Shown: in pieces, positions 36,801 to 51,629 of the stretch | Position numbering within the stretch: the first letter of the stretch is position 1 | Layout of the letters: each line of letters begins with the position of its first letter | DNA from: Candidatus Micrarchaeia archaeon | Lineage (GTDB): Archaea > Micrarchaeota > Micrarchaeia > Anstonellales > Anstonellaceae | Direction of reading: 5' to 3' | Assembly (NCBI GenBank): GCA_041650255.1 | Contig: JBAZLL010000001.1 | Span: forward strand, 20,667 to 84,666 | Length of the DNA stretch: 64,000 nucleotides | Program-made: the position numbers and the translations under genes | Notes under the pieces: model-generated | Told to the model about the DNA's origin: nothing | The model's input: only the letters and a program-made list of their open reading frames with translations | Databases searched by the model: none

Positions 36801-37769
36801 GGCTCCCTCAAAGACGGCTCAAAAATAATATTCAATGCCTCAGAGGGTCTTGTTTATGCAACCGCTTCTGGCGTTTCGCCTCCGGAATCGTTGTTTGATA
36901 AAATAGTTGAAGACGAAACAGGTTCGCCCTCAAACAAGATTCCAATTCCAAACGTGCCGTTTTTCGCATGCGTCTCATCCTATGAAAAAGTGGGCGACCG
37001 GCTCTTTTTCTATATTGGAGGAAGTGCCGAAAACCGTCAAAGCCTACAATTGCGCTCTGCGGACAAAAAATACAAAGACGGATTTAGATATTTTGATTCC
37101 GTTCCGACCTCTTCGGGCGAACCAACCCGCGAGTTTGAGCTATATGATTCAAAATCAAAAACCGTAGTCGGGTTCGCAAAAGTTGTATATCAAAAGGTTC
37201 CAGGCGAGAGCAAATACCCTTTTGACGAAGAATCCTCAAGTTATTCAATAGATCCATCTGCTGCCGTAAAAATACCTTCACTCCGATCTTTTGTCAAAAC
37301 ATTAAAAACCGATGCAGATAGCTTTGCCCACTTCCCGCAGAACTTTGAAGTCAGAAGTGATGGAAAGAGCATTCACAAATTTAGCATAACTCTTGATACA
37401 AACAGCGAGGAATACAAAGAGTTCGAAGCAAGTCTCATGGGCAAGTCCGAAGGAGCTACATCTGCGCCCGCAGACGCAAGCGACCCAAGGTTCGGCTCAT
37501 GGATATTGCGGGTAAGCACAAGGTCGGAACCAATCATTTTGCACTTTGAAGAAAATTTCCAACGCGATGGGGTTTTGCACTTTTTCCTAATAGATTCGGA
37601 AGGCAAAAAACAATACGAAGGCACTTATAATGAATCAACAAAGGAAACAAAGATTATGAACGGACCGCACAATGACGGATTATTAAAAAAGCAATTTTCG
37701 TACAATTCAATATTGGGCGAAACTGGCTCATTTGACTGGCGCAGTATGGTGCCTGTCAGGTCTGCATAG
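33873..37769 (+). CDS. Giant hypothetical protein B (1298 aa)
   Basis: ATGA overlap with gene A. N-terminal hydrophobic stretch MFVFQSFAPLIVGAAVTS (possible signal or anchor). No catalytic motif. Confidence 0.8.
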   Translation: MGMFVFQSFAPLIVGAAVTSEVQNYWCKYISEELKNNLKNNPKASVREIESMLGSLELNGFKTWLQKNTRNASQLGRDAASNYNSLEKIKNSIISLGEYSAIGGVQKSPDAQVQKLCNLLQSWQNVRKSGGSTEKLEEDLADVISSRDMDKPISALLLSGFFAGSSLGAKIDDKYFEAAAVYFSSGLPNRKNSDAFFDFLSSCLYHNQTVSANLKLSFFEPADLAPMRDAKDFINVQSCLSPWANVASFLEQMSRGRARWFISDAFDIIAEDKTNFQKGLRDGLVKAKVNGAKEMANFNYDDKFLEAGLVPNLDYTSNSGGVLTRLLSNKKFQDFVLNAKDPSDPSINYFQDVFSLGWNKDKLLNLPITDERAIKFRSLMNTLNAKQNLDLTYDRFANAFLSQIERSDKNDMGAHTGPVIFSQSQLDAWHKYFFEFDQIFLPKNSNSLVNLCNNIIREEFISDQKTIDELKAYVSNPSAGMNEETKRQVRAAMIKGMARFDLYFSASSEFFEGESEISRKVKQICQQAQPLQYIHNYTRDITYETNSKYSEFISIDYGVHSLENCDPKKDKFVISSANRFFTRMFDFFINEYREKKGVVLPPEEAYKISKYVNDPQVGYYARTLKVFFGNGLGNNGKWDESARVQVSYVRGDTETPSSSMTFSEASGYVPFFRVKEGRLKETTDELRKERFSGGEDKQENEENLATKVLKSYRRIAIVSSGATRYILELEDPNTKTYFDKTKYHMNFDYGMQGGFINPETGNFYKSEISYIISGTGKPLTKTPPLLSKVNFAFGEIFCNDYGNTVPVGEYNTGEISFEITLLKDGIEKFSPRKFTSMISDPVTSIAYDAGGVASYSSKYDISVIKEWVTRATLLGNGCASDNKGWTIAGHGMPDWPPYLITANISRENPIQFFNPGINVSFHREEHYSMELVHTTNPKVEAKVLGFEGPGGLRERHTFNPQPKKLFLNPDGKVREEGSLKDGSKIIFNASEGLVYATASGVSPPESLFDKIVEDETGSPSNKIPIPNVPFFACVSSYEKVGDRLFFYIGGSAENRQSLQLRSADKKYKDGFRYFDSVPTSSGEPTREFELYDSKSKTVVGFAKVVYQKVPGESKYPFDEESSSYSIDPSAAVKIPSLRSFVKTLKTDADSFAHFPQNFEVRSDGKSIHKFSITLDTNSEEYKEFEASLMGKSEGATSAPADASDPRFGSWILRVSTRSEPIILHFEENFQRDGVLHFFLIDSEGKKQYEGTYNESTKETKIMNGPHNDGLLKKQFSYNSILGETGSFDWRSMVPVRSA

Positions 37770-37777
37770 GTGAATAT

Positions 37778-39763
37778 ATGATTTTTCAACTAAGAGCCAT
37801 GAATTTTTCAGATTTCGCTTATGCTCAGCAGGATGGCCAACCAAAAAGTCGCAGCTCAAGTGAAAGCAAAAACGAGTCTGCCGCACTGTCATTGATTTAC
37901 AAAAATGTAGTGGATATAGTCAAACGCCCGGCTACGGACGAATATGGTGAGGCTACAGAGCAAAACTTCTTCAGATTAAAATTGCCTCCAACCGGTCAGA
38001 ACGCTGCGGTTTATTGGAAGGAGAAAATATCTCAGGCTCTATTGACCGCAGGCGATGATGCAAAAACCTGGAACACAATAAGAAAATTTTTGGAAGATGC
38101 ATTCAATTCTTTCGGATCCGATATGCTTATTGCAGTTTCTCAAAATGGCAATGAGACTTCCGCGGGACTTAATAGACTAAATTTATTTAGCGCAATCAAT
38201 GCTGTGGAGTTTGATATCCAGCGTTCAGTTGGCGGACTAAACCGCCCAGCAGATTTCGGGGTGTTTTCAGTAAGTAAAGGTAGTGCTTCTGCCGAGTGGG
38301 CGCAGGCAGGCAACGGAACCTGGCAAATGGGCGGAGCAACTTCGGTTCAAGTCGAAATTTCCCAACCGTCAAAGAGCACTCGTCCAATAGACATAACTGC
38401 GGCTGAGAAGAAACCTGTAGTGTTTGCTGATGACCTCACAAGTGTCAACTCCACCACCGAAACAAAAAAAACGCTTGCATCCACCTCTGCTTTTTCAGAG
38501 CTTGAAGAGCAGGCGGCAAGGCTTTCCGCATTTGCAAAAAAGCCATCAGACATGCCGCAAAAAGGGGCATCCCTCGAAATCGCATTCACAATTCTTGATT
38601 CATTTTTTGATTATGATTTAAGGCAGATAAAAAGCAAATTCGCGAAAGAGTCCGGTATGAGCAAAGCCGAGTTGACGGAATGTTGCAGAAAGATAATCAA
38701 CTATGCATTGGAGGCGACGGCAAATTCCGCAGAGGACAGGCTTGACCTTCTTCAATCACTGGCGTTATTTTGCGACGACGCATCTTCATCTTACAAAACC
38801 CTTGTGGATGGGCAATGGGTAAAAACTTCCGACAAGTTCAGCAAGGAAATTCGCGCCGGGGCGCAGTATGCCGTTTCATATGTGCTTTTTGATTATGGCA
38901 AATACAGTGCGATAGAAGCTTATCACGAGCTTGCAAAAAAAGGTGCAGACCCGACAGTGCTTAGTGAGATGGAAACTGTTTTCCCAGGGGTTTCAAAAAT
39001 GGACCCTTCGGACGCAACCAAATGGCTTGAAAACCGCAGGCTACAGCTTCCATTTTTAATCAACTTACTCTCCAATGCAGAGTCCCTTGAGGGTATGCCA
39101 AAAGCCGCAGATGCGGCAGTAAACGGGCTTAGCGGAATAACATGGTCTAAAGAGCGCCGAGATGGAATTCTTGCCGCCGACGCAATCTCATCTCTTGATG
39201 TTTCCAATTTGCACAAATCTGCAATCGCCAGCTCAGTGCTAAGTCGAGCTCGCAACAACTATCTTCCGATAGAAACCCGTGCCGCCTGTCTCTACTATGG
39301 AGCGTACAATTCAAACATCGCCGGCGCCTTTGACGGGGCTATGAAAGAGGATGCGCGCAATATCAAAAAGGTCGCCGAATCCGATTTTGACTTTATGCTC
39401 GCAATGCTTGTTTCTGCTTCAGGAGTAGAGCGGTCCACTTACGGAATCGACCAGACAATCAACCCCATCAACGAGGAAGTTTTTGGTTTGTATTTAAATA
39501 AAATCAAATCCTATACGTCCGCTCATAAATCCGACTCCTCATTTAACGAGCCGGTAAAAATCGGTGGGAAGCCGAAATATATCATTGAGCAGACCAGCCA
39601 GAACGGGCAAGTAGAGCAAGTCCCAGTGAGCGCCTGCTTGAGTGCAATGCAACTTATCAAGACATTAAATGACAATTTCACCCAACGTATAAGGGACAGC
39701 CCCATATGGGATAAGATGAATGAAACTTATCTTGAGCTTGAAAAAGTGCACCTGAATCATTAG
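37778..39763 (+). CDS. Hypothetical protein C (661 aa)
   Basis: An AGGTGA Shine-Dalgarno overlaps the gene B TAG stop, 4 nt before the ATG. No domain recognised. Confidence 0.75.
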   Translation: MIFQLRAMNFSDFAYAQQDGQPKSRSSSESKNESAALSLIYKNVVDIVKRPATDEYGEATEQNFFRLKLPPTGQNAAVYWKEKISQALLTAGDDAKTWNTIRKFLEDAFNSFGSDMLIAVSQNGNETSAGLNRLNLFSAINAVEFDIQRSVGGLNRPADFGVFSVSKGSASAEWAQAGNGTWQMGGATSVQVEISQPSKSTRPIDITAAEKKPVVFADDLTSVNSTTETKKTLASTSAFSELEEQAARLSAFAKKPSDMPQKGASLEIAFTILDSFFDYDLRQIKSKFAKESGMSKAELTECCRKIINYALEATANSAEDRLDLLQSLALFCDDASSSYKTLVDGQWVKTSDKFSKEIRAGAQYAVSYVLFDYGKYSAIEAYHELAKKGADPTVLSEMETVFPGVSKMDPSDATKWLENRRLQLPFLINLLSNAESLEGMPKAADAAVNGLSGITWSKERRDGILAADAISSLDVSNLHKSAIASSVLSRARNNYLPIETRAACLYYGAYNSNIAGAFDGAMKEDARNIKKVAESDFDFMLAMLVSASGVERSTYGIDQTINPINEEVFGLYLNKIKSYTSAHKSDSSFNEPVKIGGKPKYIIEQTSQNGQVEQVPVSACLSAMQLIKTLNDNFTQRIRDSPIWDKMNETYLELEKVHLNH

Positions 39764-39856
39764 CTGATTTTTTTAGCATTTTCTTCTCTGCCAATACGTT
39801 TTGCTCAAGGGCATATATTTAAAGTATAACTTGGTTTGTTCTCTTGGGTGTGATAA

Positions 39857-41698
39857 ATGCCGGCGTACATGTTTGCGGATCTTCAAAGAAATAAATCAGA
39901 TAAAGAGAGCCTCATTTCAGATTATGTGCAAATTCTTAACAACAACTCATTGAACTTGGACGAGCGGCTTGCCGCTCTCAAGCCTCTGTGCTCGGATTTA
40001 AAAAAATCAACCAATGCTTCAGAGATAAATTCCGGTCTTTTTGGGCTTTTGGTTTTTTATAATGAAAATAAAAATTCCATAAGTAATGTGGATGCAAACA
40101 GGATATCCGACGCAATCAAGAACTCAAAGTCTTTCGGATTAATGTCATATATAGACAAGCAGGACATCTCACAAAAACAAAAGGGAGTTCTAAAAGATTT
40201 GGCGCAAGAGTTGCTCACCTCAACACCACAAACCGCAATCCCTGGAATAGTACCAAAATCCAACCCACCATTAACCTCTGGTGGTTTGAGCAAACGTGGG
40301 GCGAAAGACTCCGAGAAACGTACAAATGTCAATGCTAAAGATTTCCACGACAGGCCGTTTTTCACTCCTGATTTCACGACTTTGAAAATAAATGATTTCA
40401 AGTACGACCCGGCGGTAATAAAGTTCGGGGACAATTTGGCGCTTGATGTTTTTTATGGCAGTCCCGGATACGAAACTCTCTCAAAAAAACTCGGCTTTGA
40501 CCTGTCTTCAAAAGAGGGAGAGCGCAAGGCAATCAACTATTTCGCATCAAAATTTGAGTTGTTAAAGCAATACTATGATTTTTATAAAAAAGGAAAAGCG
40601 CTTGGATTCAGCAATGTGGAAGATATCAATCCAACCGAAGTTAAGGAAACCTGTGCAACAATATTGCAAATAGCAAGAACCGGCTCATTCACTTCTGATG
40701 AGGTAAATATGCTAAAATCCAGCGATATTGTAGGTTTCATAAAATCATATTCCTCCCGAAGCGATGACGATTTCTCGGCATGGCTTAGAACTGAAGGAAA
40801 GCTGAATCTTGCTCTTGAGAGCAAAGTGCTTATCGGTTCAGTAACGGCTGTAATTCCTACTAAAAAATGGGGCACCGATTTTATTTTCGGCTCGCGAGTG
40901 GATGTTTTTTCAAAAGAAACAAAAGACGTTTTTTCACTTTCCGACGAATCTCTCACTGATGTTTATAGCAATATATCTATGGATTCCCCAAAAAGTTTTG
41001 TCCCGCACGGAATAGTCGGCGTAATGGTTAGCAGTAAGGGAGCGCTGGAGGCTCTTTTCGGCTTTGGTTCCGATGCCGAATACAGCCTGCGCTGGGGCAC
41101 TCGTTCAAAATATTCCGGCAAGCCGATAGGAGACATAAAATTCATGGGAGGTTATCTTGATTACAATGTGGAAGCTTCAATGAAAACCGAGGGCGCGGAA
41201 GATAAAATAACTGTAAACTTTCTAAGCGGTCAAAAATCAATGTCAAATGGAAGTTCCACCAATTTCGGAATAACTGCAGGTGCCGACTACGATGCGGAGC
41301 TAGGAAAAATAAAACTAGGTGGAGTGCAATTTGCAGACTGTACTGGGGTTCTTTTCAACATGAATCTCGGGTACTCAAACCAGAGCGGAATGAGTGCGGG
41401 TTCACGCTTGGGTCTGGTATTATTCCCCACGCGCGCTCTCGGCTTGCAGGCATCTGTGGGTGCCCAACTTAGCGACTTCAAGCTAAAGGAAATAAACGGG
41501 AATCTAGGAGCGACATTCAGCTTGAACGATGGCGCATCATTTTCACTGAATTTGGGTGCAGTACAAAGGCTCTTGGAATATTCCGCCTCCAAAAATGAAT
41601 TTATCAATGCAAATAATCCAAAGCCGGAATTTAGGGGAGATGTCCGAATTTCAATACCTGCAAACCAAATACCTCTTCTAAAAGAAATTGTTGAATAG
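39857..41698 (+). CDS. Hypothetical protein D (613 aa) with a Gly/Ser-rich beta-strand-like C-terminal region
   Basis: The C-terminal ~220 aa shows alternating hydrophobic/polar patterns (GATFSLNDGASFSLNLGAVQRLL; LGYSNQSGMSAGSRLGLVLF). Confidence 0.75.
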   Translation: MPAYMFADLQRNKSDKESLISDYVQILNNNSLNLDERLAALKPLCSDLKKSTNASEINSGLFGLLVFYNENKNSISNVDANRISDAIKNSKSFGLMSYIDKQDISQKQKGVLKDLAQELLTSTPQTAIPGIVPKSNPPLTSGGLSKRGAKDSEKRTNVNAKDFHDRPFFTPDFTTLKINDFKYDPAVIKFGDNLALDVFYGSPGYETLSKKLGFDLSSKEGERKAINYFASKFELLKQYYDFYKKGKALGFSNVEDINPTEVKETCATILQIARTGSFTSDEVNMLKSSDIVGFIKSYSSRSDDDFSAWLRTEGKLNLALESKVLIGSVTAVIPTKKWGTDFIFGSRVDVFSKETKDVFSLSDESLTDVYSNISMDSPKSFVPHGIVGVMVSSKGALEALFGFGSDAEYSLRWGTRSKYSGKPIGDIKFMGGYLDYNVEASMKTEGAEDKITVNFLSGQKSMSNGSSTNFGITAGADYDAELGKIKLGGVQFADCTGVLFNMNLGYSNQSGMSAGSRLGLVLFPTRALGLQASVGAQLSDFKLKEINGNLGATFSLNDGASFSLNLGAVQRLLEYSASKNEFINANNPKPEFRGDVRISIPANQIPLLKEIVE

Positions 41699-41706
41699 GT
41701 GAATGA

Positions 41707-43893
41707 ATGACGAAACTCAAATTATCCCTGTTTGTATTGCTTGCATTTTTTGCGCCAATAATATACTCATCCCAAACTTTGGACTATCCTTCACAGCTCA
41801 ATTTTTTCAGCGCAGGGCACGGGTTTGAAACTGACGGTTCCTTTACATTGGTTTCAAGATTTTCAACCAGCTCATCCGGAGCTCCATCTCAAATTTTCAT
41901 TCCAAGAGAAACCGCTATAGACCGGTCCGACTTGCCAGTTGAAATCTATATGTGCCCCGGCAATCTTATGCCAAGCACGACTCCATCCGGAACTTTTTAC
42001 AAAACATCCTTTAGCGGCGATTCGTTTTACATCCTTCCAAATAAGCGCACAAACTTCGTATGTTTCAAGTCCGCCGATTATGACATTTGCATAAAAGAGT
42101 CGTATCCATGGCCCGCCGACCAGCTCGGAAAGGGCACGCAGATCCAATGGTCCACTTCTCCCTCTCCGACAATTCTTGACAAGATGAAGGCGGATTCAAA
42201 TTTCAAGGCAACTGTAGACCCTCAAGAGGCTCTGTACAATGAATTGTGTACAAACGCAAACGTGAACGTTGATTATTATCCCGCACTGGCCGAAGAGTTT
42301 TATCCAGACAACGAAGGCAAAGCAGGAGTCGCATGCTCCGGCTCGGAAAAAGTTTATGTGAAATCAGGCTCATCAACCACCCCGCTTGTCCGTGCGGACG
42401 GGAAATCTTCTCCCGCGCCAATAAATTCAAATTCTTGCAATCCACCATCTTCGCAAAATTGGCAGAGCTATTCTTTTGCAGACAATAAACAGGACACCAT
42501 TACTCTTGGAAGCATAACATACAAAGGGCAAAACTACGAAGTGCTCTCCGAATTGGACACTGGCACATTGGTATGCCATGGGGCAATACAAATCCTTCCC
42601 TACAAAGGGGACAAATATGATGCCAAATATCTGTATCTAAGTGGAGGGGCATCTCCTACTTCGCAATCGGCATCAAAATATGTCGTTCATGTTGTGGAGC
42701 CCGGCACCTGCAATCTCCCAGTAATCTCATTTTCTCCAAACCCGCTTACTGGAGTCTCTCCAAACGGACAGTACACAATAAATGTGGACATAAAAAATCC
42801 CTACCTTCTCTTTGACATGGACATAACCGGAGTTAGGATGTCGCCTTACTCTCCAGTGAATGGCTGGAGCGCAAAAATTGATTCCCTTCCAATAAAAATA
42901 GAATCGGACAAAACCGTTAGCGTGCCCGTGGTTCTTACCTCTCCGGCGCAACTCACTTCCCTTGATGATGTGTGCTTTAACATCTCATACACTTCATCGG
43001 TTCCATTCTGTGACGGAAAGAAATGCACAAACTCTTCCCTTGTTTGCGTAAAGCTTGACCTGACCCCAAGCTGTAAAATATTTTCCCTCACTGTCCCTCC
43101 AATAAAAACCGGAGACAGCACGATTCTAAACACCACTTGCTATGAAGATGGATATGTTTTTCCCTGCGAGCCGATTGAATGGGTTGCGTCCGGATTTGAA
43201 GATAAGAGTGGCAATCAAAACATAAGCTTTTTTGCACTCGGGGCGCAGGATTACATTCCCCAAAATGTCCCTGCACTTGATTCAAAATTTATTATAGTTC
43301 CCCCTTACACGACTCCGCCATACACTTATCCGGCACAACCGGCAGAGCGAAAATTCTTTACTGCAAACCCGGCACCATGGGGGATGCTTTGGACATATGA
43401 TTGGCACGACAAGCCATCAATTACTCCGGAAGCTCCGAACGGCAAAATAAGCGCGAGCGGAACAAACTCGCAGAAAAAAAGTTTCACATGCGAATTTGAC
43501 ATAAACGCCGCCAAAGCGGATTTGCCAGACTTTACACCCGATGTAATAATCACGCCTTCCGGAGATCCTTTGCGCGGAACACAGCAATATTTGATAACTT
43601 ATTCGGCATTTAACAAAGGCCTTGGTGCATCACCGAGCGGCAGTGATGTTGAAAACGTTTTAAGGGATTCAAAGAATGCAATCGCGAGCAAAACAGTATT
43701 TAGCGAATCTGTAGCTCCATTGAAAAAGAGCAAAGCAGGCACATACACTTTCCAGTGCCCGTTCCCCGGGTTCTTCAAATTCTTCATAAGCGTTGACGAC
43801 AAGGGCGTAATTGATGAAGAAAAAGAGGACAACAATAAGGGCACAATAGATTTGCGCTGTGACGGACTATATTATTGCCCGGACTTGGTGTAA
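41707..43893 (+). CDS. Secreted Cys-rich protein E (728 aa) with a CARDB-like C-terminal domain
   Basis: Signal peptide MTKLKLSLFVLLAFFAPIIYS. The C-terminus (FISVDDKGVIDEEKEDNNKGTIDL) resembles the CARDB signature (VDPDN.V.E.NE.NN). An AGGTGA Shine-Dalgarno overlaps the gene D TAG stop. Confidence 0.75.
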   Translation: MTKLKLSLFVLLAFFAPIIYSSQTLDYPSQLNFFSAGHGFETDGSFTLVSRFSTSSSGAPSQIFIPRETAIDRSDLPVEIYMCPGNLMPSTTPSGTFYKTSFSGDSFYILPNKRTNFVCFKSADYDICIKESYPWPADQLGKGTQIQWSTSPSPTILDKMKADSNFKATVDPQEALYNELCTNANVNVDYYPALAEEFYPDNEGKAGVACSGSEKVYVKSGSSTTPLVRADGKSSPAPINSNSCNPPSSQNWQSYSFADNKQDTITLGSITYKGQNYEVLSELDTGTLVCHGAIQILPYKGDKYDAKYLYLSGGASPTSQSASKYVVHVVEPGTCNLPVISFSPNPLTGVSPNGQYTINVDIKNPYLLFDMDITGVRMSPYSPVNGWSAKIDSLPIKIESDKTVSVPVVLTSPAQLTSLDDVCFNISYTSSVPFCDGKKCTNSSLVCVKLDLTPSCKIFSLTVPPIKTGDSTILNTTCYEDGYVFPCEPIEWVASGFEDKSGNQNISFFALGAQDYIPQNVPALDSKFIIVPPYTTPPYTYPAQPAERKFFTANPAPWGMLWTYDWHDKPSITPEAPNGKISASGTNSQKKSFTCEFDINAAKADLPDFTPDVIITPSGDPLRGTQQYLITYSAFNKGLGASPSGSDVENVLRDSKNAIASKTVFSESVAPLKKSKAGTYTFQCPFPGFFKFFISVDDKGVIDEEKEDNNKGTIDLRCDGLYYCPDLV

Positions 43894-43928: not shown

Positions 43929-43949
43929 GTGCAATTGCATTCCACTCTC

Positions 43950-44621
43950 ATGTCAAAGCTTCCTAATCTCAAGGATTTGGATCTGTCTTTTCTAAAAAAA
44001 GGGCAAACGCCTGCTCAGAAAGCGGCAGCAGAGCCTGATAGCGAGCTTGAAGAGCTTAAGAAAAAAATGCAGGTTCAGAAAATGCAGCTTGAGCTCATGT
44101 ACATGATAATTGAGCGCTACAAAAAATTCATAGAAGATGGCGAATCCAAATCAATATCCGACCTTCGCACATTGGTGCGCCCGATGGATTCAGTAATTAC
44201 CGAAGTGAAAATCGGCATTGAAGACCAGTTCCATCCATATGTATATGATTCAAACTTTCTTCTTGCGACACAGCGCGCAATGGATTTGGTATTCTCATGG
44301 AAAAAGGTAAAATTGCCTGTAAGCTTTTGGATGGGCTTTGAAGACATGGTTCATCTAAAGGCGGCGGACGATATTGACCGCGCGATATTTCTCTGTTCGC
44401 TTTTTCGCGCCCTCGGCTCCGATTCCGCAAAAGTGGTTATAGGCAAAGACCGCGCGGCATGGACATTTTTCACATTCGGGGAAAAAGACTATGTTGTAAA
44501 TATCGGAGACCGTACAATGAGTGCATATCCAAATGGCGGGGACGGAATAAAGCTGTTTATGAGAACTGCGCTTTATTCGTTTAATGACAAGGACTATTCC
44601 GATTTGAGCGAAGGACAATAA
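43950..44621 (+). CDS. Transglutaminase-like (papain-fold) domain protein; Cys conserved, His position replaced by Ala
   Basis: AIFLCSLFRALGSDSAKVVIG matches the TGase-core G.C..FA.LF.AL.RALGIPARVV.G region. The downstream RAAWTFFTF...VVNIGD aligns to HAW.E.....W..FD but has Ala where His is expected. Confidence 0.45.
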   Translation: MSKLPNLKDLDLSFLKKGQTPAQKAAAEPDSELEELKKKMQVQKMQLELMYMIIERYKKFIEDGESKSISDLRTLVRPMDSVITEVKIGIEDQFHPYVYDSNFLLATQRAMDLVFSWKKVKLPVSFWMGFEDMVHLKAADDIDRAIFLCSLFRALGSDSAKVVIGKDRAAWTFFTFGEKDYVVNIGDRTMSAYPNGGDGIKLFMRTALYSFNDKDYSDLSEGQ

Positions 44622-46796: not shown

Positions 46797-46986
46797 GTAT
46801 GGATTTAAGCTCTGGTTTTTTTAAACCCAAACCGCCGATATGCTTCTATGGAAAAATTGGAAATTCTCACAATCTCATTTATCGCAATCCTATTTTTGGC
46901 TGTTCTTGTATGGATGATGTACAAAGAAGGAAGCAAAGCCTCCTGGCAGGCGACAAGCAGGCAGACCCGCGAGCAGAGGGACAAGA

Positions 46987-47781
46987 ATGAAAAGCAAAAA
47001 TAATATTGAAGGCAATTTTATACCTAAAAAAGAAAAAGGGCTTTTTGATAATTTTGCGTTTTTTTCAATTATTTTTTTGGCGCTCTTTGCAATATTTGTA
47101 ATTCTCTTTGTGCAAAATTCCCCTTCCCCAAGTTGGCAATGGGGGGCGGAAGCCCCTCCAATTGCAAAAACGTCCGAATTCAATTTACGCGCGGGGGATT
47201 TTCTGCAATATGATCTTTGGATAAAAAATGCAAGCGGCGGGAAAATAATTATCCGTGCAATTGCAAACAAAAATTGCAGTGGAGTGGTGCTTGCAGACCA
47301 AATTCTTTCACAAAGATATTATTCAAGCATGCAAAACGCCTATGAAAACACAAATGGTGCATACGCAATTTGTATAGGCAAAGACGGTTTTGAAAGAAAT
47401 AAGTTTGGAAATAAAATCGGAAGTGTAATCGGGTTTGAAAATGCAAGCTGGCCTTACTATGCGCCATGGATGCTTTCTTTGAAAGAAAATTTTTCGCTTA
47501 ATGCCAATCAAACACTCACAATAATCCCCTCTAATCAGGTGCAAAAATTTCCTCTAAAAATAGAAGTGTTAAACAAAACCAAAATCCTTGGGCGTGATGC
47601 GTTTTATGTGCAAATAACATCTTATGAAATCAGCTCCGATTATTTTCCTTCCGCATCCGGCAATTCCACAATAAAAAGCATCCGTGCATATATAGATGAT
47701 CAGTATCGAGTATTACTTTCATGGGAAAGCGCCGGCACAAAAGTGGAACTTTCCAATGCCTCGTTTTTGCCAGAACAATGA
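46987..47781 (+). CDS. Membrane-anchored hypothetical protein
   Basis: N-terminal TM FDNFAFFSIIFLALFAIFVILFV, then a ~220 aa domain with no motif recognised. Confidence 0.45.
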   Translation: MKSKNNIEGNFIPKKEKGLFDNFAFFSIIFLALFAIFVILFVQNSPSPSWQWGAEAPPIAKTSEFNLRAGDFLQYDLWIKNASGGKIIIRAIANKNCSGVVLADQILSQRYYSSMQNAYENTNGAYAICIGKDGFERNKFGNKIGSVIGFENASWPYYAPWMLSLKENFSLNANQTLTIIPSNQVQKFPLKIEVLNKTKILGRDAFYVQITSYEISSDYFPSASGNSTIKSIRAYIDDQYRVLLSWESAGTKVELSNASFLPEQ

Positions 47782-47837
47782 TTTATGTCGTTAGATATGT
47801 TTATATATGAAAAAAGAGAAATAGAATTGAGCTTTTT

Positions 47838-49484
47838 ATGCGAACGATTAAAGTGTCAGAATATCCACTCGACACATCTGAAAAGTCCAAGCGTTTTTGC
47901 CACCCCAAGCGCAAAATACATTATAGTCGAGACGAGGTACGATTGGTGAATCTTCTTTTGAGCGAGCCGTTAATCAAACGAGGTACGAGCTATTCGCAAT
48001 GCAGATATGAAATTAATAGAATGGAATCTGAACTTATTGATGACTGGAAAGATGCTCCAAAATATCAGCAAGACGCCCTCAAACTTTCTATAATGTTGAA
48101 GAAAAGTGACCATCCTCTCAATGGAAAAAAATCCAACAAGATCTCATGGCGGGTAGATGAAACCCCACGGCTTGCGCATTTTATCGAGCCTGCATACCGA
48201 TTAAGCATGTTGCATGCAGACCTTGATGAGGTTATCTCAACTTTGCATCACGATGATATTGAGGACGGTCTCAAGAATGTAAATGAAATCCGCAACGCCC
48301 TAAGAAAAGGCGCGCGGAGCGATGTACCAACCCAAATTCTTTCCGAGTGCGTTGTCTGGCACGTCAAAGCCCTGTCTAATACCTACAAAACTCCACGTGT
48401 GCGGGCGCAAATAAACAGCCCATCCGACATCTATTCTCCCAAAGTATTGAGCTATCTAAATGGACGGCTATCTGCGGAGGACATGTATCTGCGCGATATC
48501 AACTCGCTTCCTCTCGCCGGGCCGCGTGTCGTAAAAATAACTGGAGACCGGCTTCACAATGTGCAGTCTAATTTGGATCCAAAAAAATACCTTGACTTGA
48601 TTGTGCATTCCTACATAAAGGCTTTCAGAAGCCTTAATTGGGCGAAAAAATATCATTATGCAACCGGCTATTATACGCTTGAGGCGATAAAGTTGGGGCT
48701 TGAAAGAATAGTCAATGTTTTCGGGGAAGATGCAATAAAGTTATTTTCTATTCCAAAAAAAGGGGATGCACGCTTTCCAAAAGGCACGGATGTAAAATTC
48801 CCCTTGGATATTTTTTCGGCATATGACTATCACAAATATAACAAATCCTTTGAGCAGGACGAGCACGATTTCAATATGGTTGAACTGGCAGGCATTCGCT
48901 CCGAACTCAGCATAGACACCATGAGAAAGCTACCGTATATGGGTACGAAAGTAGCGGTTATTTTTGCGCCCGGCAAATTGTATTATTCACGGGTTGATGA
49001 GCATCCAATTGAAGTGCAATTGCCAAGGCGGCTTCCTTCGGATGAGCAATCAAACTGGCTATCTTTGGATCCAGCGTCTGAACAAGGCTGGACTCAATTA
49101 AGAAGTGAAGATGTAGTCAAAGAATTTCAGAAAGGAATTGATGCCTACAAGCTTCCCTTTATTGTGGAATTAGTGCCAAGCATACTGCCCGGAAAAATGG
49201 GTATGGATTCGATAATGCTAAGCCTCAAATTCTGCGGGGGGGATTCATTTAGCGGTTATCTTGAGAAAGATGGTTCAGGCCTGGCAGCGCAAAAAAAATA
49301 TGTGTCAATAATATACGACCTCTCCGATCTTTTGCGCGATTTTTTGGAAAATAGCTTCAAAGCAAAACCTCGCGGCATGCTGTTCTTGCAGGACAATGTG
49401 ATGCCTCCGCAAGATAGTTATGAGCAAATATCAAACAAACTTTTCAAAAACCAGAAACCTATCCAGGATAGCCTTTTTGATTAA
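47838..49484 (+). CDS. HD-domain protein of the RelA/SpoT (ppGpp hydrolase, Mesh1-like) type with ~300 aa uncharacterised C-terminal extension
   Basis: LHADLDEVISTLHHDDIEDG matches AALLHDVVEDT. VKITGDRLHNVQS matches VKLADRLHNMRT. A TATA TTTATATAT lies ~35 nt upstream. Confidence 0.5.
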   Translation: MRTIKVSEYPLDTSEKSKRFCHPKRKIHYSRDEVRLVNLLLSEPLIKRGTSYSQCRYEINRMESELIDDWKDAPKYQQDALKLSIMLKKSDHPLNGKKSNKISWRVDETPRLAHFIEPAYRLSMLHADLDEVISTLHHDDIEDGLKNVNEIRNALRKGARSDVPTQILSECVVWHVKALSNTYKTPRVRAQINSPSDIYSPKVLSYLNGRLSAEDMYLRDINSLPLAGPRVVKITGDRLHNVQSNLDPKKYLDLIVHSYIKAFRSLNWAKKYHYATGYYTLEAIKLGLERIVNVFGEDAIKLFSIPKKGDARFPKGTDVKFPLDIFSAYDYHKYNKSFEQDEHDFNMVELAGIRSELSIDTMRKLPYMGTKVAVIFAPGKLYYSRVDEHPIEVQLPRRLPSDEQSNWLSLDPASEQGWTQLRSEDVVKEFQKGIDAYKLPFIVELVPSILPGKMGMDSIMLSLKFCGGDSFSGYLEKDGSGLAAQKKYVSIIYDLSDLLRDFLENSFKAKPRGMLFLQDNVMPPQDSYEQISNKLFKNQKPIQDSLFD

Positions 49485-49515
49485 ATTCCAATTTTTTTTC
49501 TAAAAAGCCGCAGTG

Positions 49516-50316
49516 TTATTTTTTAGTATTCGCATTCTCAAAACTTTCTTCTTCTGCAAAATGCATCTTCGCGCAAATGATAATTATCGCAGGCCCCTCT
49601 TTCTCATTTTTCAAATTTTTATAATCCCTAATTTCCCCGGCCCAAACCTTTTCATCTTCCCATCCAACATGCCAAAGAACAAAAATCTTTGAATCGGGCA
49701 GGATGATTTTTTCTTTTATCTCTCCTGCAACAATCTTTTTCTCCTGTGCGCGATTCAATACTTCAAGCGCCTGCGAAGGTTTCATCGGACCCATCTGCAC
49801 GTCAATATCCAGAAGGCATAATGTATGTGCGTCAATTTTTTTATTGGCGCAAATCACATCCAAAAACGAAGTCGGCTCAAAGTTTTTTCTCCAATAAGTG
49901 ATAGTTGCGGTTTTTCCAAATTTATAATTTTGCAATCCTGCCGCTCCCGGAGCGGCGGAAAAAATTGAGGATGCATGAAGCACTTTTGCATCTATCTTAT
50001 TTTTTTTAGCCGCCTGCAAAAGCGAACTGTGGGTCGTGGCGCTCATCGGGTCTCCGGGCACAAGAAAAGCAACAAATTTGTCATCATTTTCAAACGCGTC
50101 AATAATCTTCTTCTCTCCCTCAACCTCCTCTCTTGCAAGGAGTTCAATCTTTTTTCCAATAATTTTTTCAAGCCGATTAAGCGTTTTATCCTTCATCAGA
50201 TTTGTATAATTTTCAGCAAACACTTTATCGCATTTTTTCAGTGTCTCAATTGAGCGCGAAGACAAATCCAGCTCATCGCATAGCCCCATGCCAATTAGAT
50301 AAAGCGTGTTTTTCAT
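49516..50316 (-). CDS. dph5: Diphthine synthase
   Basis: Tetrapyrrole-methylase fold with LYLIGMGL and VPGDPMSATTH. The ATG at 50316 (MKNTLYLIG) is preferred over the GTG at 50355 used by the track. Confidence 0.8.
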   Translation of the reverse strand: MKNTLYLIGMGLCDELDLSSRSIETLKKCDKVFAENYTNLMKDKTLNRLEKIIGKKIELLAREEVEGEKKIIDAFENDDKFVAFLVPGDPMSATTHSSLLQAAKKNKIDAKVLHASSIFSAAPGAAGLQNYKFGKTATITYWRKNFEPTSFLDVICANKKIDAHTLCLLDIDVQMGPMKPSQALEVLNRAQEKKIVAGEIKEKIILPDSKIFVLWHVGWEDEKVWAGEIRDYKNLKNEKEGPAIIIICAKMHFAEEESFENANTKK

Positions 50317-50333
50317 ATCGGAAATTAGGTTTG

Positions 50334-50346
50334 CGAATAAATTTAA
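50334..50346. promoter_or_regulatory. Central AT-rich TATA-like element (AATAAATTTAA) shared by divergent dph5 and the downstream + strand gene
   Basis: It lies ~26 nt from the dph5 start (50316, minus) and ~28 nt from the GTG at 50370 (plus). Confidence 0.3.
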
Positions 50347-50369
50347 CTCTGCCACCCCCCTATTCTTTA

Positions 50370-51629
50370 GTGGACATTCTCAAGCTTGCAAAAGAAGACA
50401 GCAAAAAAATCAGCCCGACAAAACCAAGAAGCGAACTAAACGAGCTGTGCCCAAATTGCAGGCAAAACGGGCGGGTGTATTGCCCGCACAAGCCCCTTTT
50501 GGCAATCAAGGCGGCAAACGCGCAAAAATTCGACAAGACGGAATTTTTCGGACCGTCCCCCCCAAATCTATTCGTGGGGCATTTCTCATATCCTCAAATT
50601 ACATGGGGTCCGACGGTCGGATTGGCAGAAAATGTTCCTGACAATCCAAAGGATTGGTATGGCTGGGATTTTGACAAAATAGTTTATGCGCGAAGCATGC
50701 AAATTCGCGGGCAAGTTTCCTCTTCTGTTCACATAGCAAAAAGCCCCGGCTTTGCACGGGCGCCGTCTCTTTCGCGCATTGTACTAGACTCTCAAGAGTC
50801 TGCAATGTCGATTAATCCTGTTGATTTGGAAACCCATTTTTCCAAAAAGCCGACATTAAATGTTTCATTTCATCAAATAAACCAGCCGACGGGTCCGTCT
50901 GCCCCACTTCTAAAAATGAGAGTTGCGGACAATCCTAAAATTCCCTCAAAGGTGGATGAGCTTGTGTCTGAAGGGGTGCGCGCGAATGCGGCGATGGCGG
51001 AACTTCTTTTTGAGGGGTTTGACGAGCACTATCTCACCCGGCTTTTGACCGCCGGTGTTTTGGGGCAAAAAGATGCGCGGCGCTTCGTTCCGACAAAATG
51101 GGGCATCACTGCGGTTGATGACACAATTGCAAAAGAGCACATGAAAAAAATAAGAGAAATGCCCCAAATAAACGAGTTCATGCTTTTCTCAAACGAATAT
51201 CTTGCGAACCGATTTTTCATTCTTCTTCTTCCCGGTGCATGGGAATATGAAAATTTTGAGAGCTGGTGCGGGGCGAATTCCTCTGCTACAAGCTGTGAAT
51301 ATGAAGGCTATTTCGGGCGCAGTGATTATGCCCAAAAGCAAGGAGGCGGATATTATGCGGCTCGCTTGTCTGTGTGTGAAGCGCTCGCAACCAAAATAAA
51401 AAAGCAGGCACGGGTGGTACTGATTCGCGAGATAATGCCTGAGTATGATTTGCCTGTGGGAGTTTGGGAAATCCGCGAGAATGTTCGTCATGCCTTCCTA
51501 AACAACGGGCAAAAATTTTCAAATCAACAAGAGCTTATGAGTGAGCTTTCAAAAAAACTCAAACTGCCCCTCTCAACCTATATTTGCAAAAGCTCTGTTC
51601 TGCGACAACGCAAGCTTACCGACTACTAA
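50370..51629 (+). CDS. Conserved hypothetical protein with N-terminal CxxC-x8-CPH zinc-binding-like motif (possibly Nre/COG1602 family); start uncertain (GTG)
   Basis: Long ORF containing LCPNCRQNGRVYCPHKP. No in-frame ATG exists downstream of the dph5 overlap, so GTG 50370 is proposed. The family assignment is tentative. Confidence 0.35.
   Translation: MDILKLAKEDSKKISPTKPRSELNELCPNCRQNGRVYCPHKPLLAIKAANAQKFDKTEFFGPSPPNLFVGHFSYPQITWGPTVGLAENVPDNPKDWYGWDFDKIVYARSMQIRGQVSSSVHIAKSPGFARAPSLSRIVLDSQESAMSINPVDLETHFSKKPTLNVSFHQINQPTGPSAPLLKMRVADNPKIPSKVDELVSEGVRANAAMAELLFEGFDEHYLTRLLTAGVLGQKDARRFVPTKWGITAVDDTIAKEHMKKIREMPQINEFMLFSNEYLANRFFILLLPGAWEYENFESWCGANSSATSCEYEGYFGRSDYAQKQGGGYYAARLSVCEALATKIKKQARVVLIREIMPEYDLPVGVWEIRENVRHAFLNNGQKFSNQQELMSELSKKLKLPLSTYICKSSVLRQRKLTDY

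What the first reader, a model, noticed from the sequence alone, without database searches (positions are those of the whole stretch)
47838..49484. RelA/SpoT-type HD (ppGpp-hydrolase-like) domain fused to a ~300 aa unknown C-terminal region in an archaeon
Residues ~125-240 carry LHADLDEVISTLHHDDIEDG and VKITGDRLHNVQS, matching the two most conserved blocks of the Rel/SpoT/Mesh1 HD hydrolase domain (AALLHDVVEDT; VKLADRLHNMRT). Alarmone metabolism is largely absent from archaea, so a Mesh1-like hydrolase with a long novel extension is unusual. The extension contains a weak ELAGIRS/DFN stretch but no convincing synthetase motifs. It could hydrolyse (p)ppGpp-like or other pyrophosphorylated nucleotides, possibly ones acquired from a host.
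Basis: partly seen in the sequence, partly recalled or inferred. Interest (0 to 1): 0.55.

Follow-up and report, generated by a model that had tools for sequence, protein, structure and literature searches.

The report
Divergent SpoT-like hydrolase with novel domain
This Micrarchaeota (DPANN archaeon) gene encodes a highly diverged but apparently still active relative of the bacterial enzymes that break down the stress signal (p)ppGpp, joined to a protein domain with no detectable relative outside this family, and it belongs to a small, vertically inherited archaeal family that standard annotation misses.

Summary
The protein alone hits no Pfam or NCBIfam model, even at E<=10.

About 13 full-length relatives exist among 1.84 billion representative proteins. 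With them, homology to the RelA/SpoT (RSH, Pfam HD_4) hydrolase domain is secure:
- The family profile matches Rel/SpoT/SAH/MESH1 structures (E 1.3e-10).
- 7 of 14 members hit HD_4 individually.
- hhalign against a long RSH gives 95% probability.
- Foldseek on a confident AlphaFold model (pLDDT 84) returns Rel/SpoT/SAH structures as its top ~23 hits.

All six published catalytic motifs (HD1-HD6) are present with canonical spacing. Their core residues are conserved in all 13 full-length members, so the enzyme is probably active.

Residues 325-505 form an acidic alpha+beta domain with no sequence or fold relative. It is not a synthetase: hhalign gives 0.1%, and the ELAGIR motif is not conserved across the family.

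The gene has its own TATA box. It sits in the same housekeeping neighbourhood in every relative examined, which points to vertical inheritance rather than a mobile or defence element.

The substrate is unknown: (p)ppGpp-like nucleotides, NADPH or another 3'/2'-phosphorylated nucleotide.

Verdict: a new variant of a known kind, of moderate interest.

The parts
47800..47807 (+). Archaeal TATA box (TTTATATA) about 34 nt upstream of the ATG; the gene's own promoter
   Evidence: GTTTATATA-like element at the same position upstream of the orthologous gene in L001, L003, L004, L006 and L007; sequence confirmed
47838..49484 (+). Complete CDS, 548 aa plus TAA. The true start is the ATG at 47838; the deposited NCBI model starts 36 codons later at GTG 47946.
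   Evidence: ORF listing. The N-terminal 36 residues are conserved in relatives. P0001 matches query residues 37-548.
47838..48062 (+). Family-specific helical N-terminal extension (residues 1-75) with a conserved P10...H22-P23-x-R25-K26...Y29 motif
   Evidence: Conservation; pLDDT 76-97 in the AF2 model; no counterpart in the canonical RSH (profile position 78 aligns to Rel residue 22)
48063..48743 (+). RSH-type (Pfam HD_4-like) all-helical hydrolase domain, residues ~76-302, with a ~30-aa insertion (residues ~195-228) before the HD5 helix
   Evidence: Profile against PDB, Pfam per member, hhalign, Foldseek, MAFFT with a canonical RSH
48150..48179 (+). HD1 Arg (R105) to HD2 His (H114): RVDETPRLAH. 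The 9-residue spacing matches bifunctional long RSHs.
   Evidence: Both residues conserved 13/13; motif definitions from PMC9293644; translation check
48249..48266 (+). HD3 (H138-D139, metal ligands) and HD4 (E142-D143, catalytic dyad): HDDIED. H138 lies 24 residues after H114, as in RelSeq and RelH.
   Evidence: H138, D139 and E142 conserved 13/13; position 143 is D in 11/13 and E in 2/13; aligned to LLHDTLED of T. thermophilus Rel
48534..48560 (+). HD5 (D237-R238, metal ligand) and HD6 (N241), preceded by K233: KITGDRLHN
   Evidence: K233, D237 and N241 conserved 13/13; aligned to VKLADRLHN of Rel
48744..48809 (+). Interdomain linker, residues 303-324, variable in length and low confidence
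   Evidence: pLDDT <50 at residues 313-319; indel-rich in the alignment
48810..49352 (+). Novel acidic alpha+beta domain, residues 325-505. (Nearly) invariant residues: H332, S337, Q340, R354, E392, P396, S448.
   Evidence: AF2 pLDDT ~85-96; no PDB sequence hit; only generic alpha+beta sandwiches by Foldseek, probability <=0.25; hhalign against SYN profiles 1% and 0.1%; not found outside the family; pI 4.9
49353..49481 (+). Non-conserved, probably disordered C-terminal tail (residues 506-548)
   Evidence: pLDDT 35-46; no conservation
49492..49499 (+). T8 run 7 nt after the stop codon, a plausible archaeal oligo-T terminator shared with the convergent diphthine synthase gene
   Evidence: Sequence; the terminator role is an inference

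Best explanation

Inferred mechanism:
- H114, H138, D139 and D237 hold a Mn2+ ion.
- E142-D143 activate the water that attacks a 3'-(pyro)phosphate.
- R105 and N241 position a purine base.

This is the chemistry SpoT, Rel, the small alarmone hydrolases and MESH1 use to remove the 3'-diphosphate of (p)ppGpp/(p)ppApp or the 2'-phosphate of NADPH.

The core is embedded between a family-specific ~75-aa helical N-terminal extension and a ~180-aa acidic alpha+beta C-terminal domain. That C-domain has no detectable relatives and is not an alarmone synthetase. It most likely acts as a specificity, regulatory or oligomerisation module packed against the hydrolase.

The gene is transcribed from its own TATA-box promoter. 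It is a vertically inherited, lineage-specific gene of Micrarchaeota, sitting in a conserved housekeeping neighbourhood.

Shown: homology, fold, conservation of all catalytic motifs, architecture, synteny and promoter.
Inferred: enzymatic activity, metal and the role of the C-domain.
Open: the physiological substrate. My estimate is ~30-35% (p)ppGpp/(p)ppApp-type alarmones and ~40% another phosphorylated nucleotide such as NADPH.
For: Homology:
- Family profile against PDB: the top 19 hits are all RSH hydrolases, E 1.3e-10 for T. thermophilus Rel, 1.1e-9 for SAH RelH, 2.7e-5 for MESH1.
- Pfam HD_4 in 7/14 members, best E 9.6e-8.
- hhalign against a long RSH: 95.2%, E 2.7e-8.
- PHROGs 'metal-dependent phosphohydrolase' in 3 members.

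Fold:
- AF2 model pLDDT 83.9, pTM 0.85.
- Foldseek top ~23 PDB hits are all Rel/SpoT/RelA/SAH, probability up to 1.0, target TM-score up to 0.55.
- The top viral hit is a phage ppGpp pyrophosphohydrolase, E 3.3e-4.

Active site:
- HD1-HD6 as defined in PMC9293644 are all present.
- R105, H114, H138, D139, E142, K233, D237 and N241 are conserved 13/13. Position 143 is D or E in 13/13.
- Spacing is canonical: 9, 24, +3, +4.

Real, independently expressed, vertically inherited gene:
- Conserved TATA box in all loci with a short upstream gap (L001, L003, L004, L006, L007).
- Identical gene order around orthologs down to 19-27% identity.
- No PADLOC defence hit and no relative found in the viral-contig scan.

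C-domain novelty.
Against: - The window protein alone has no significant hit to any Pfam or NCBIfam model or to the PDB.
- Foldseek E-values against the PDB are weak (>=0.07), although the hits are consistent.
- No alarmone synthetase is detectable in the 64-kb window.
- Micrarchaeota are not among the DPANN phyla reported to carry RelA/SpoT, and (p)ppGpp has not been detected in the archaea tested. A (p)ppGpp substrate therefore lacks a known source.
- The HD5 partner Arg (R238) is kept only in the closest relatives.
- No biochemical data exist.
- The role of the C-domain is pure inference, because model coordinates could not be inspected.
Confidence: 0.72

Rival explanations
1. A degenerate long RSH: the C-terminal domain is a cryptic or relic (p)ppGpp synthetase (SYNTH) domain, so the protein is, or descends from, a bifunctional Rel-like enzyme.
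For: - The domain order (HD, then an alpha/beta domain) mimics Rel NTDs.
- The 9-residue HD1-HD2 spacing is the long-RSH type rather than the SAH or Mesh1 type.
- 'PIEVQLPRR' superficially resembles the SYNTH motif 'PIEIQLRT'.
- Three Foldseek alignments to full-length SpoT/Rel extend over 435-504 columns.
Against: - hhalign of the C-domain against SYNTH profiles gives 1% and 0.12% probability, and 0.3% against an entire long RSH.
- No PF04607 hit in any of 14 members at E<=10.
- The extended Foldseek alignments have RMSD 13-18 A.
- With the model whose N-part is noise, no Rel or SAS structure appears among the top 50 C-domain-driven hits.
- The catalytic Asp/Gly of DxxGxR are not conserved (only R354 is), and there is no RxKxxxS motif.
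Confidence: 0.05
2. A MESH1-like enzyme whose physiological substrate is not an alarmone. Candidates are NADPH (2'-phosphatase), another 2'/3'-phosphorylated nucleotide or cofactor, or a 3'-pyrophosphorylated RNA end. This is a sub-case of the best explanation that differs in substrate.
For: - No synthetase in the window.
- RelA/SpoT is not reported in Micrarchaeota, and (p)ppGpp is undetectable in the archaea tested.
- MESH1 is an NADPH phosphatase in organisms with negligible ppGpp (PMC9166373).
- Some SAHs remove pyrophosphate from the tRNA CCA end (bioRxiv 2021.04.30.441581).
- The extra domains could remodel the substrate pocket.
Against: [quoted passage not shown] This fits an alarmone equally well.
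- The acidic C-domain (pI ~5-6 in 10 of 14 members) argues weakly against RNA binding.
- There is no toxSAS-like partner nearby.
Confidence: 0.4
3. A pseudo-enzyme: the HD fold is retained only as a scaffold or regulatory module, like the inactive HD domain of E. coli RelA.
For: Extreme sequence divergence (no direct Pfam hit), large insertions and added domains.
Against: All six catalytic motifs are kept across members that share only 19-47% identity overall. That pattern is the signature of selection on catalysis. From established knowledge, the RelA pseudo-HD has lost these residues.
Confidence: 0.08
4. A chance motif resemblance or a generic (non-RSH) HD phosphohydrolase.
For: The single-sequence searches are negative.
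Against: - The family profile hits RSH hydrolases specifically. Generic HD proteins (PhnZ, an unnamed HD-domain protein) appear only at E 0.03-0.1.
- Pfam HD (PF01966) is hit in 1/14 members at E 0.034, against HD_4 in 7/14.
- The RSH-specific HDxxED dyad and the DxxxN motif are present.
- Fold searches return RSH structures.
Confidence: 0.02

Closest known systems
Hydrolase (HD) domain of bifunctional long RSHs (Rel of T. thermophilus 6S2T/7OHG, RelSeq 1VJ7, B. subtilis Rel 6YXA, SpoT 7QPR)
   Same: Best sequence-profile and fold matches. All six HD motifs are present. The HD1-HD2 spacing of 9 and the HD2-HD3 spacing of 24 are identical to RelSeq.
   Different: No SYNTH, TGS or ACT domains. 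Extra 75-aa N-terminal extension. About 30-aa insertion before the HD5 helix. Unrelated C-terminal domain. Sequence too divergent for Pfam HD_4 to detect in this protein.
Small alarmone hydrolases (SAH; e.g. C. glutamicum RelH 7QOC/7QOD, L. levettii 7QOE, phage-encoded SAHs)
   Same: Monofunctional hydrolase-only RSH. Highest target TM-scores, 0.48-0.55. The Ser at the RelSeq-T151-equivalent position (S244) matches RelH-type SAHs. A phage SAH is the top viral fold hit.
   Different: SAHs are single-domain proteins of ~180-220 aa, while this one is 548 aa with three parts. The HD1 loop lacks the SAH insertion. No toxin-antitoxin or phage context.
MESH1 / HDDC3 (metazoan SpoT homologue; 5VXA, 3NR1)
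   Same: An RSH hydrolase in an organism with no recognised (p)ppGpp synthetase. Profile match E 2.7e-5 to 1.9e-6. It sets the precedent for a non-alarmone substrate, NADPH.
   Different: MESH1 is a ~180-aa single domain with the longest HD1 loop. There is no specific phylogenetic affinity. The architecture differs.
RelA/SpoT homologues previously annotated in DPANN archaea (Diapherotrites, Woesearchaeota, Pacearchaeota, Nanoarchaeota; PMC8407392)
   Same: RSH-superfamily proteins in DPANN archaea.
   Different: Those are detectable by standard annotation and were inferred to be recent acquisitions from Bacteria. Micrarchaeota were not listed. This family escapes standard HMMs and appears vertically inherited, with conserved synteny.

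Membership tests
RSH superfamily hydrolase domain (Pfam HD_4, PF13328) | Significant sequence or profile match to HD_4 / RSH hydrolase domains | tested here: met
   Not met by the protein alone (0 Pfam hits at E<=10). Met at family level: 7/14 members hit HD_4 (best 9.6e-8); family profile against PDB Rel/SpoT/SAH E 1.3e-10; hhalign 95.2%.
RSH superfamily hydrolase domain (Pfam HD_4, PF13328) | Mn2+ ligands HD2 (His), HD3 (His-Asp) and HD5 (Asp) in register | tested here: met
   H114, H138-D139 and D237 are conserved 13/13. The H-to-HD spacing of 24 matches RelSeq and RelH.
RSH superfamily hydrolase domain (Pfam HD_4, PF13328) | HD4 Glu-Asp catalytic dyad (HDxxED) | tested here: met
   E142 is conserved 13/13. 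Position 143 is D in 11/13 and E in 2/13.
RSH superfamily hydrolase domain (Pfam HD_4, PF13328) | HD1 Arg and HD6 Asn (base-coordinating residues) | tested here: met
   R105 and N241 are conserved 13/13. N241 lies 4 residues after D237.
RSH superfamily hydrolase domain (Pfam HD_4, PF13328) | All-alpha HD fold superposable on Rel/SpoT/SAH structures | tested here: met
   The Foldseek top ~23 PDB hits are all RSH hydrolases, probability up to 1.0, target TM-score 0.4-0.55, ~230-260 aligned columns. The BFVD top hit is a phage ppGpp hydrolase, E 3.3e-4. PDB E-values are modest (>=0.07).
RSH superfamily hydrolase domain (Pfam HD_4, PF13328) | Mn2+-dependent 3'-pyrophosphohydrolase activity on (p)ppGpp | not testable with these tools
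   Requires a biochemical assay.
Small alarmone hydrolase (SAH) class | Single-domain protein consisting of the HD domain only (~180-220 aa) | tested here: not met
   The protein is 548 aa, with a conserved N-terminal extension and a 180-aa C-terminal domain in all full-length members.
Long RSH (Rel/RelA/SpoT) | SYNTH domain (PF04607) following the HD domain | tested here: not met
   No PF04607 hit in 14/14 members at E<=10. hhalign 1% and 0.12%. No SYNTH structures among the C-domain-driven fold hits. Catalytic motifs are absent.
Long RSH (Rel/RelA/SpoT) | C-terminal TGS and ACT/RRM regulatory domains | tested here: not met
   No Pfam hits. hhalign of the C-domain against a full long RSH gives 0.3%.
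toxSAS/SAH toxin-antitoxin or anti-phage defence modules | Adjacent toxSAS partner, or membership of a known defence system | tested here: not met
   Neighbours are mevalonate kinase, diphthine synthase, Nre and a membrane protein in every locus examined. PADLOC 0/14. No synthetase in the window.

The most novel reading that the evidence does not exclude
This is an ancient, vertically inherited Micrarchaeota enzyme. Its RSH hydrolase core, capped by a lineage-specific acidic alpha+beta domain, acts on a substrate other than bacterial (p)ppGpp: an as-yet-unknown archaeal 3'-(pyro)phosphorylated nucleotide signal, or nucleotides or cofactors taken from the host. That would be the first handle on alarmone-like nucleotide signalling or salvage in DPANN archaea that lack any recognisable synthetase. 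The C-domain would be a new ligand-sensing or specificity fold.
Probability: 0.2. Interest if true: 0.75.

Novelty: new variant of a known kind. Interest (0 to 1): 0.45.

Why it matters
RSH enzymes are the core of bacterial stringent-response signalling. In archaea they are regarded as rare, recently transferred single-domain add-ons.

This family shows that a catalytically intact SpoT-like hydrolase has been kept, apparently vertically and in a fixed housekeeping locus, across deeply diverged Micrarchaeota. It has a new three-part architecture and is invisible to routine annotation: it is deposited as 'hypothetical protein' and has no Pfam hit.

It raises a concrete, testable question: what 3'- or 2'-phosphorylated nucleotide does a reduced-genome DPANN symbiont with no known synthetase need to hydrolyse? 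MESH1 posed the same question in animals.

It also provides a new ~180-aa domain for structural and functional study, and a corrected gene model.

Tried and rejected
- Direct Pfam, NCBIfam and PDB searches with the single protein gave nothing or noise.
- The first AlphaFold run, on a 3-sequence alignment, was unusable for the HD part (pLDDT 44). I reused it deliberately to bias the fold search toward the C-domain.
- Cryptic synthetase hypothesis: rejected by hhalign against two SYNTH profiles, against a whole long RSH, by the fold search and by motif conservation.
- C-domain profile against the PDB gave only sub-threshold uS2-like beta-alpha-beta matches (E 0.096), treated as noise.
- C-domain profile against the 5.8-billion-protein database returned only a family fragment.
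- Defence or toxin-antitoxin role: PADLOC 0/14 and no partner gene nearby.
- Viral or mobile origin: no relatives found in the IMG/VR or JGI metagenome contig scans, and synteny is conserved.
- Operon with the upstream membrane protein: disfavoured, because a conserved TATA box sits in the ~50-bp gap.
- P0016 (3100 aa), from the exhaustive search, is a spurious repeat-summed hit.
- The genome-contig scan with the 14-sequence alignment failed for lack of a conserved stretch. A 5-sequence alignment recovered only P0003's contig.
Full report
**Observation.** The ORF at 47838..49484 (+) exists and encodes 548 aa.
- The quoted strings are at residues 125-144 (LHADLDEVISTLHHDDIEDG), 232-244 (VKITGDRLHNVQS) and 349-355 (ELAGIRS).
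- The identical protein, minus its first 36 residues, is deposited as 'MAG: hypothetical protein WC492_00325 [Candidatus Micrarchaeia archaeon]'.
- The neighbours are archaeal: Nre, diphthine synthase (TP_methylase), a GHMP/mevalonate kinase and family-B DNA polymerase.

- It gives no Pfam or NCBIfam family even at E<=10, and only noise against PDB sequences.
- Relatives are very few: 3 in the word-indexed 5.8-billion-protein search, and 15 hits at E<=1e-3 in an exhaustive phmmer scan of 1.84 billion representatives.
- About a dozen of those 15 hits are full-length, 497-604 aa. One (P0016) is a spurious repeat-summed hit.
- A 3-sequence profile already ranked six Rel/SpoT hydrolases at the top of the PDB, with both motif blocks in register (E 0.01-0.3).

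With the 14-sequence alignment A2 the signal becomes unambiguous:
- The top 19 PDB hits are all RSH hydrolases: T. thermophilus Rel 1.3e-10, C. glutamicum RelH 1.1e-9, RelSeq 9e-8, MESH1 2.7e-5, a (p)ppApp hydrolase 0.014. Generic HD proteins appear only at E>=0.03.
- Seven of 14 members hit Pfam HD_4 individually, best 9.6e-8.
- hhalign against a canonical 580-aa long RSH gives 95.2% probability, E 2.7e-8.
- PHROGs labels three members 'metal-dependent phosphohydrolase'.

**Structure.**
- AlphaFold2 on the 3-sequence alignment was poor (pLDDT 44). On the 14-sequence alignment it is confident (pLDDT 83.9, pTM 0.85).
- Foldseek against the PDB returns Rel/SpoT/RelA/SAH structures as the top ~23 hits. 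Probability reaches 1.0, ~230-260 columns align, and the target TM-score reaches 0.55 for SAHs. E-values are modest, >=0.07.
- Against BFVD the best hit is a Klebsiella phage ppGpp pyrophosphohydrolase, E 3.3e-4.

**Active site.** I used the published six-motif definition: HD1 Arg; HD2 His; HD3 His-Asp; HD4 Glu-Asp; HD5 Asp+Arg/Lys; HD6 Asn (PMC9293644). I combined it with an explicit alignment to a canonical RSH.
- The window protein has R105 (HD1), H114 (HD2), H138-D139 (HD3), E142-D143 (HD4), D237-R238 (HD5) and N241 (HD6).
- The spacings are canonical: 9, 24, +3 and +4.
- R105, H114, H138, D139, E142, K233, D237 and N241 are conserved in 13/13 full-length members. Position 143 is D in 11 and E in 2.
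- Overall identity to the query is only 19-47%. Strict retention of every catalytic residue on that background argues for a working enzyme, not a pseudo-hydrolase.
- The 9-residue HD1-HD2 loop is the long-RSH type, not the lengthened SAH or Mesh1 type.
- S244 occupies the RelSeq-T151 position, as in RelH-type SAHs.

**Architecture**:

| Part | Residues | Notes |
|---|---|---|
| N-terminal extension | 1-75 | Conserved, helical |
| HD core | ~76-302 | ~30-aa insertion at ~195-228 |
| Linker | 303-324 | Variable, low confidence |
| C-domain | 325-505 | Alpha+beta |
| Tail | 506-548 | Disordered, non-conserved |

**The C-terminal domain.** It is as conserved as the HD core, with H332, S337, Q340, R354, E392, P396 and S448 (nearly) invariant. 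It is predicted with pLDDT ~85-96. It has no detectable relatives:
- Its profile against the PDB gives nothing credible.
- Its profile against 5.8 billion proteins returns only a family fragment.
- No Pfam family reaches significance in any member's C-terminal half.

I tested specifically whether it is a degenerate synthetase:
- hhalign against a SYNTH profile of three near-identical long RSHs gave 1%, pairing only 14 columns, 'PIEVQLPR' with 'PIEIQLRT'.
- I then built a more diverse SYNTH profile from genuine S. aureus Rel, E. coli RelA and B. subtilis Rel sequences. Against it the probability is 0.12% and the motif match disappears.
- Against the entire long RSH, including TGS and ACT, it is 0.3%.
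No Rel, SAS or nucleotidyltransferase appeared.
Only R354 is invariant, and the usual motif is xPR.
- The domain is acidic, pI ~5-6 in 10 of 14 members, whereas the N-extension and HD core are mostly basic. That argues weakly against an RNA-binding role.

**Genomic context.** All six other loci recovered share the order: bPH_2 - (Rpb6) - mevalonate kinase (-) - tiny TM ORF - ~240-315-aa membrane-anchored protein - HD protein - diphthine synthase (-) - Nre (where the contig reaches that far).
- These are P0002, P0006, P0008, P0011, P0013 and P0014, at 19-47% identity.
- The window has the same order, including the 51-aa TM ORF at 46848..47003.
- The upstream membrane protein is orthologous across loci.
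- The ~50-bp gap before the HD gene contains a conserved archaeal TATA box (GTTTATATA; window 47800-47807, ~34 nt from the ATG) in every locus with a short gap. A T8 run follows the stop codon. The gene is therefore most simply its own transcription unit.
- There is no PADLOC hit, and no relative was found in the IMG/VR or JGI metagenome contig scans.
- No synthetase-like or second HD-like ORF exists in the 64-kb window.
- The only named carriers are Micrarchaeota/Micrarchaeia.
- Together this indicates a vertically inherited, lineage-specific gene rather than a recent transfer, a toxin-antitoxin antidote or a defence element.

**Comparison with what is known.**
- Atkinson et al. 2011 found only a few SAS/SAH proteins in Euryarchaeota, attributed them to HGT, and found no long RSH in archaea (PMC3153485).
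- A 2021 DPANN survey annotated RelA/SpoT in 69% of Diapherotrites, 42% of Woesearchaeota, 21% of Pacearchaeota and 19% of Nanoarchaeota, inferred to come from Bacteria. Micrarchaeota were not listed (PMC8407392).
- (p)ppGpp was not detected in H. volcanii or S. acidocaldarius (PMC8646023).
- RSH hydrolases can have other substrates. MESH1 is an NADPH phosphatase (PMC9166373), and some SAHs remove pyrophosphate from tRNA 3'-CCA ends (bioRxiv 2021.04.30.441581).
- This protein works like an RSH hydrolase and passes every sequence and fold membership test for the RSH HD domain. It is neither an SAH (not single-domain) nor a long RSH (no SYNTH, TGS or ACT).

**Mechanism (inferred).**
- Mn2+ is bound by H114, H138, D139 and D237.
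- Water is activated by E142-D143 and attacks the 3'-(or 2'-)phosphate ester of a purine nucleotide.
- The base stacks on R105 and contacts N241.
- The acidic C-domain and the N-extension, confidently packed against the core (pTM 0.85), modulate specificity, regulation or oligomerisation.

My estimates:
- RSH-type HD domain: ~0.95.
- Catalytically active: ~0.75.
- Substrate (p)ppGpp/(p)ppApp-like: ~0.3-0.35.
- Another phosphorylated nucleotide such as NADPH: ~0.4.
- Relic synthetase in the C-domain: ~0.05.

**Verdict.** It is a new variant of a known kind, of moderate interest (0.45).

Noticed in passing
window 47838-47948: The deposited NCBI gene model (WC492_00325, 512 aa) starts at GTG 47946. 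Residues 1-36 from the ATG at 47838 are conserved in all relatives and a TATA box sits ~34 nt upstream of 47838, so the deposited start is 36 codons too short.
   Followed up: yes
window 46848-47003 (+): Unlisted 51-aa single-transmembrane ORF (MEKLEILTISFIAILFLAVLVWMMYKEGSKASW...). It overlaps the start of the next gene. Clear orthologs (LVWLMYKEGS..SW.EISK) sit at the same position in L001, L004, L006 and L007.
   Followed up: partly
window 46987-47781 (+): A 264-aa protein with an N-terminal TM anchor and a conserved extracytoplasmic domain (two invariant Cys, PWML motif). It has no Pfam hit and always lies immediately upstream of the HD gene in relatives (29-38% identity).
   Followed up: partly
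window 25301-27652 and 29017-43893 (+): A run of large co-directional ORFs (783, 1618, 1298, 661, 613 and 728 aa), none with any Pfam hit at E<=1e-3. They may be giant DPANN surface or host-interaction proteins.
   Followed up: no
window 50202-51629 (+): The Nre ORF as mechanically listed (TTG start, 475 aa) overlaps the diphthine synthase gene by ~150 nt. The Pfam Nre_N match starts at residue 91 and orthologs are 425-436 aa, so the real start is probably ~40-50 codons downstream.
   Followed up: no
window 43929-44621 (+): A 230-aa ORF with a sub-threshold match to the CEP76 peptidase-like (transglutaminase-like) domain (E 1.1e-4, below the gathering score).
   Followed up: no
window 48150-48179 (residues 105-114): The HD1-HD2 loop length (9 residues) matches bifunctional long RSHs rather than SAHs (10) or Mesh1 (11). 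This weakly hints that the HD core descends from a long-RSH-type ancestor, even though no synthetase remnant is detectable.
   Followed up: partly
L006 11747-12197 (-): The contig carrying the distant family member P0014 also encodes a separate HD + HD_assoc_2 protein and several bPH_2 proteins a few kb downstream.
   Followed up: no
P0016: A 3100-aa repetitive adhesin-like protein (~75-aa repeats containing ITPRPITLTGDQLSKIYGNTDPNL) reached E 3.6e-4 against the query only by summing about 20 sub-threshold repeat matches to residues 209-250. It is a false positive of the exhaustive search.
   Followed up: yes
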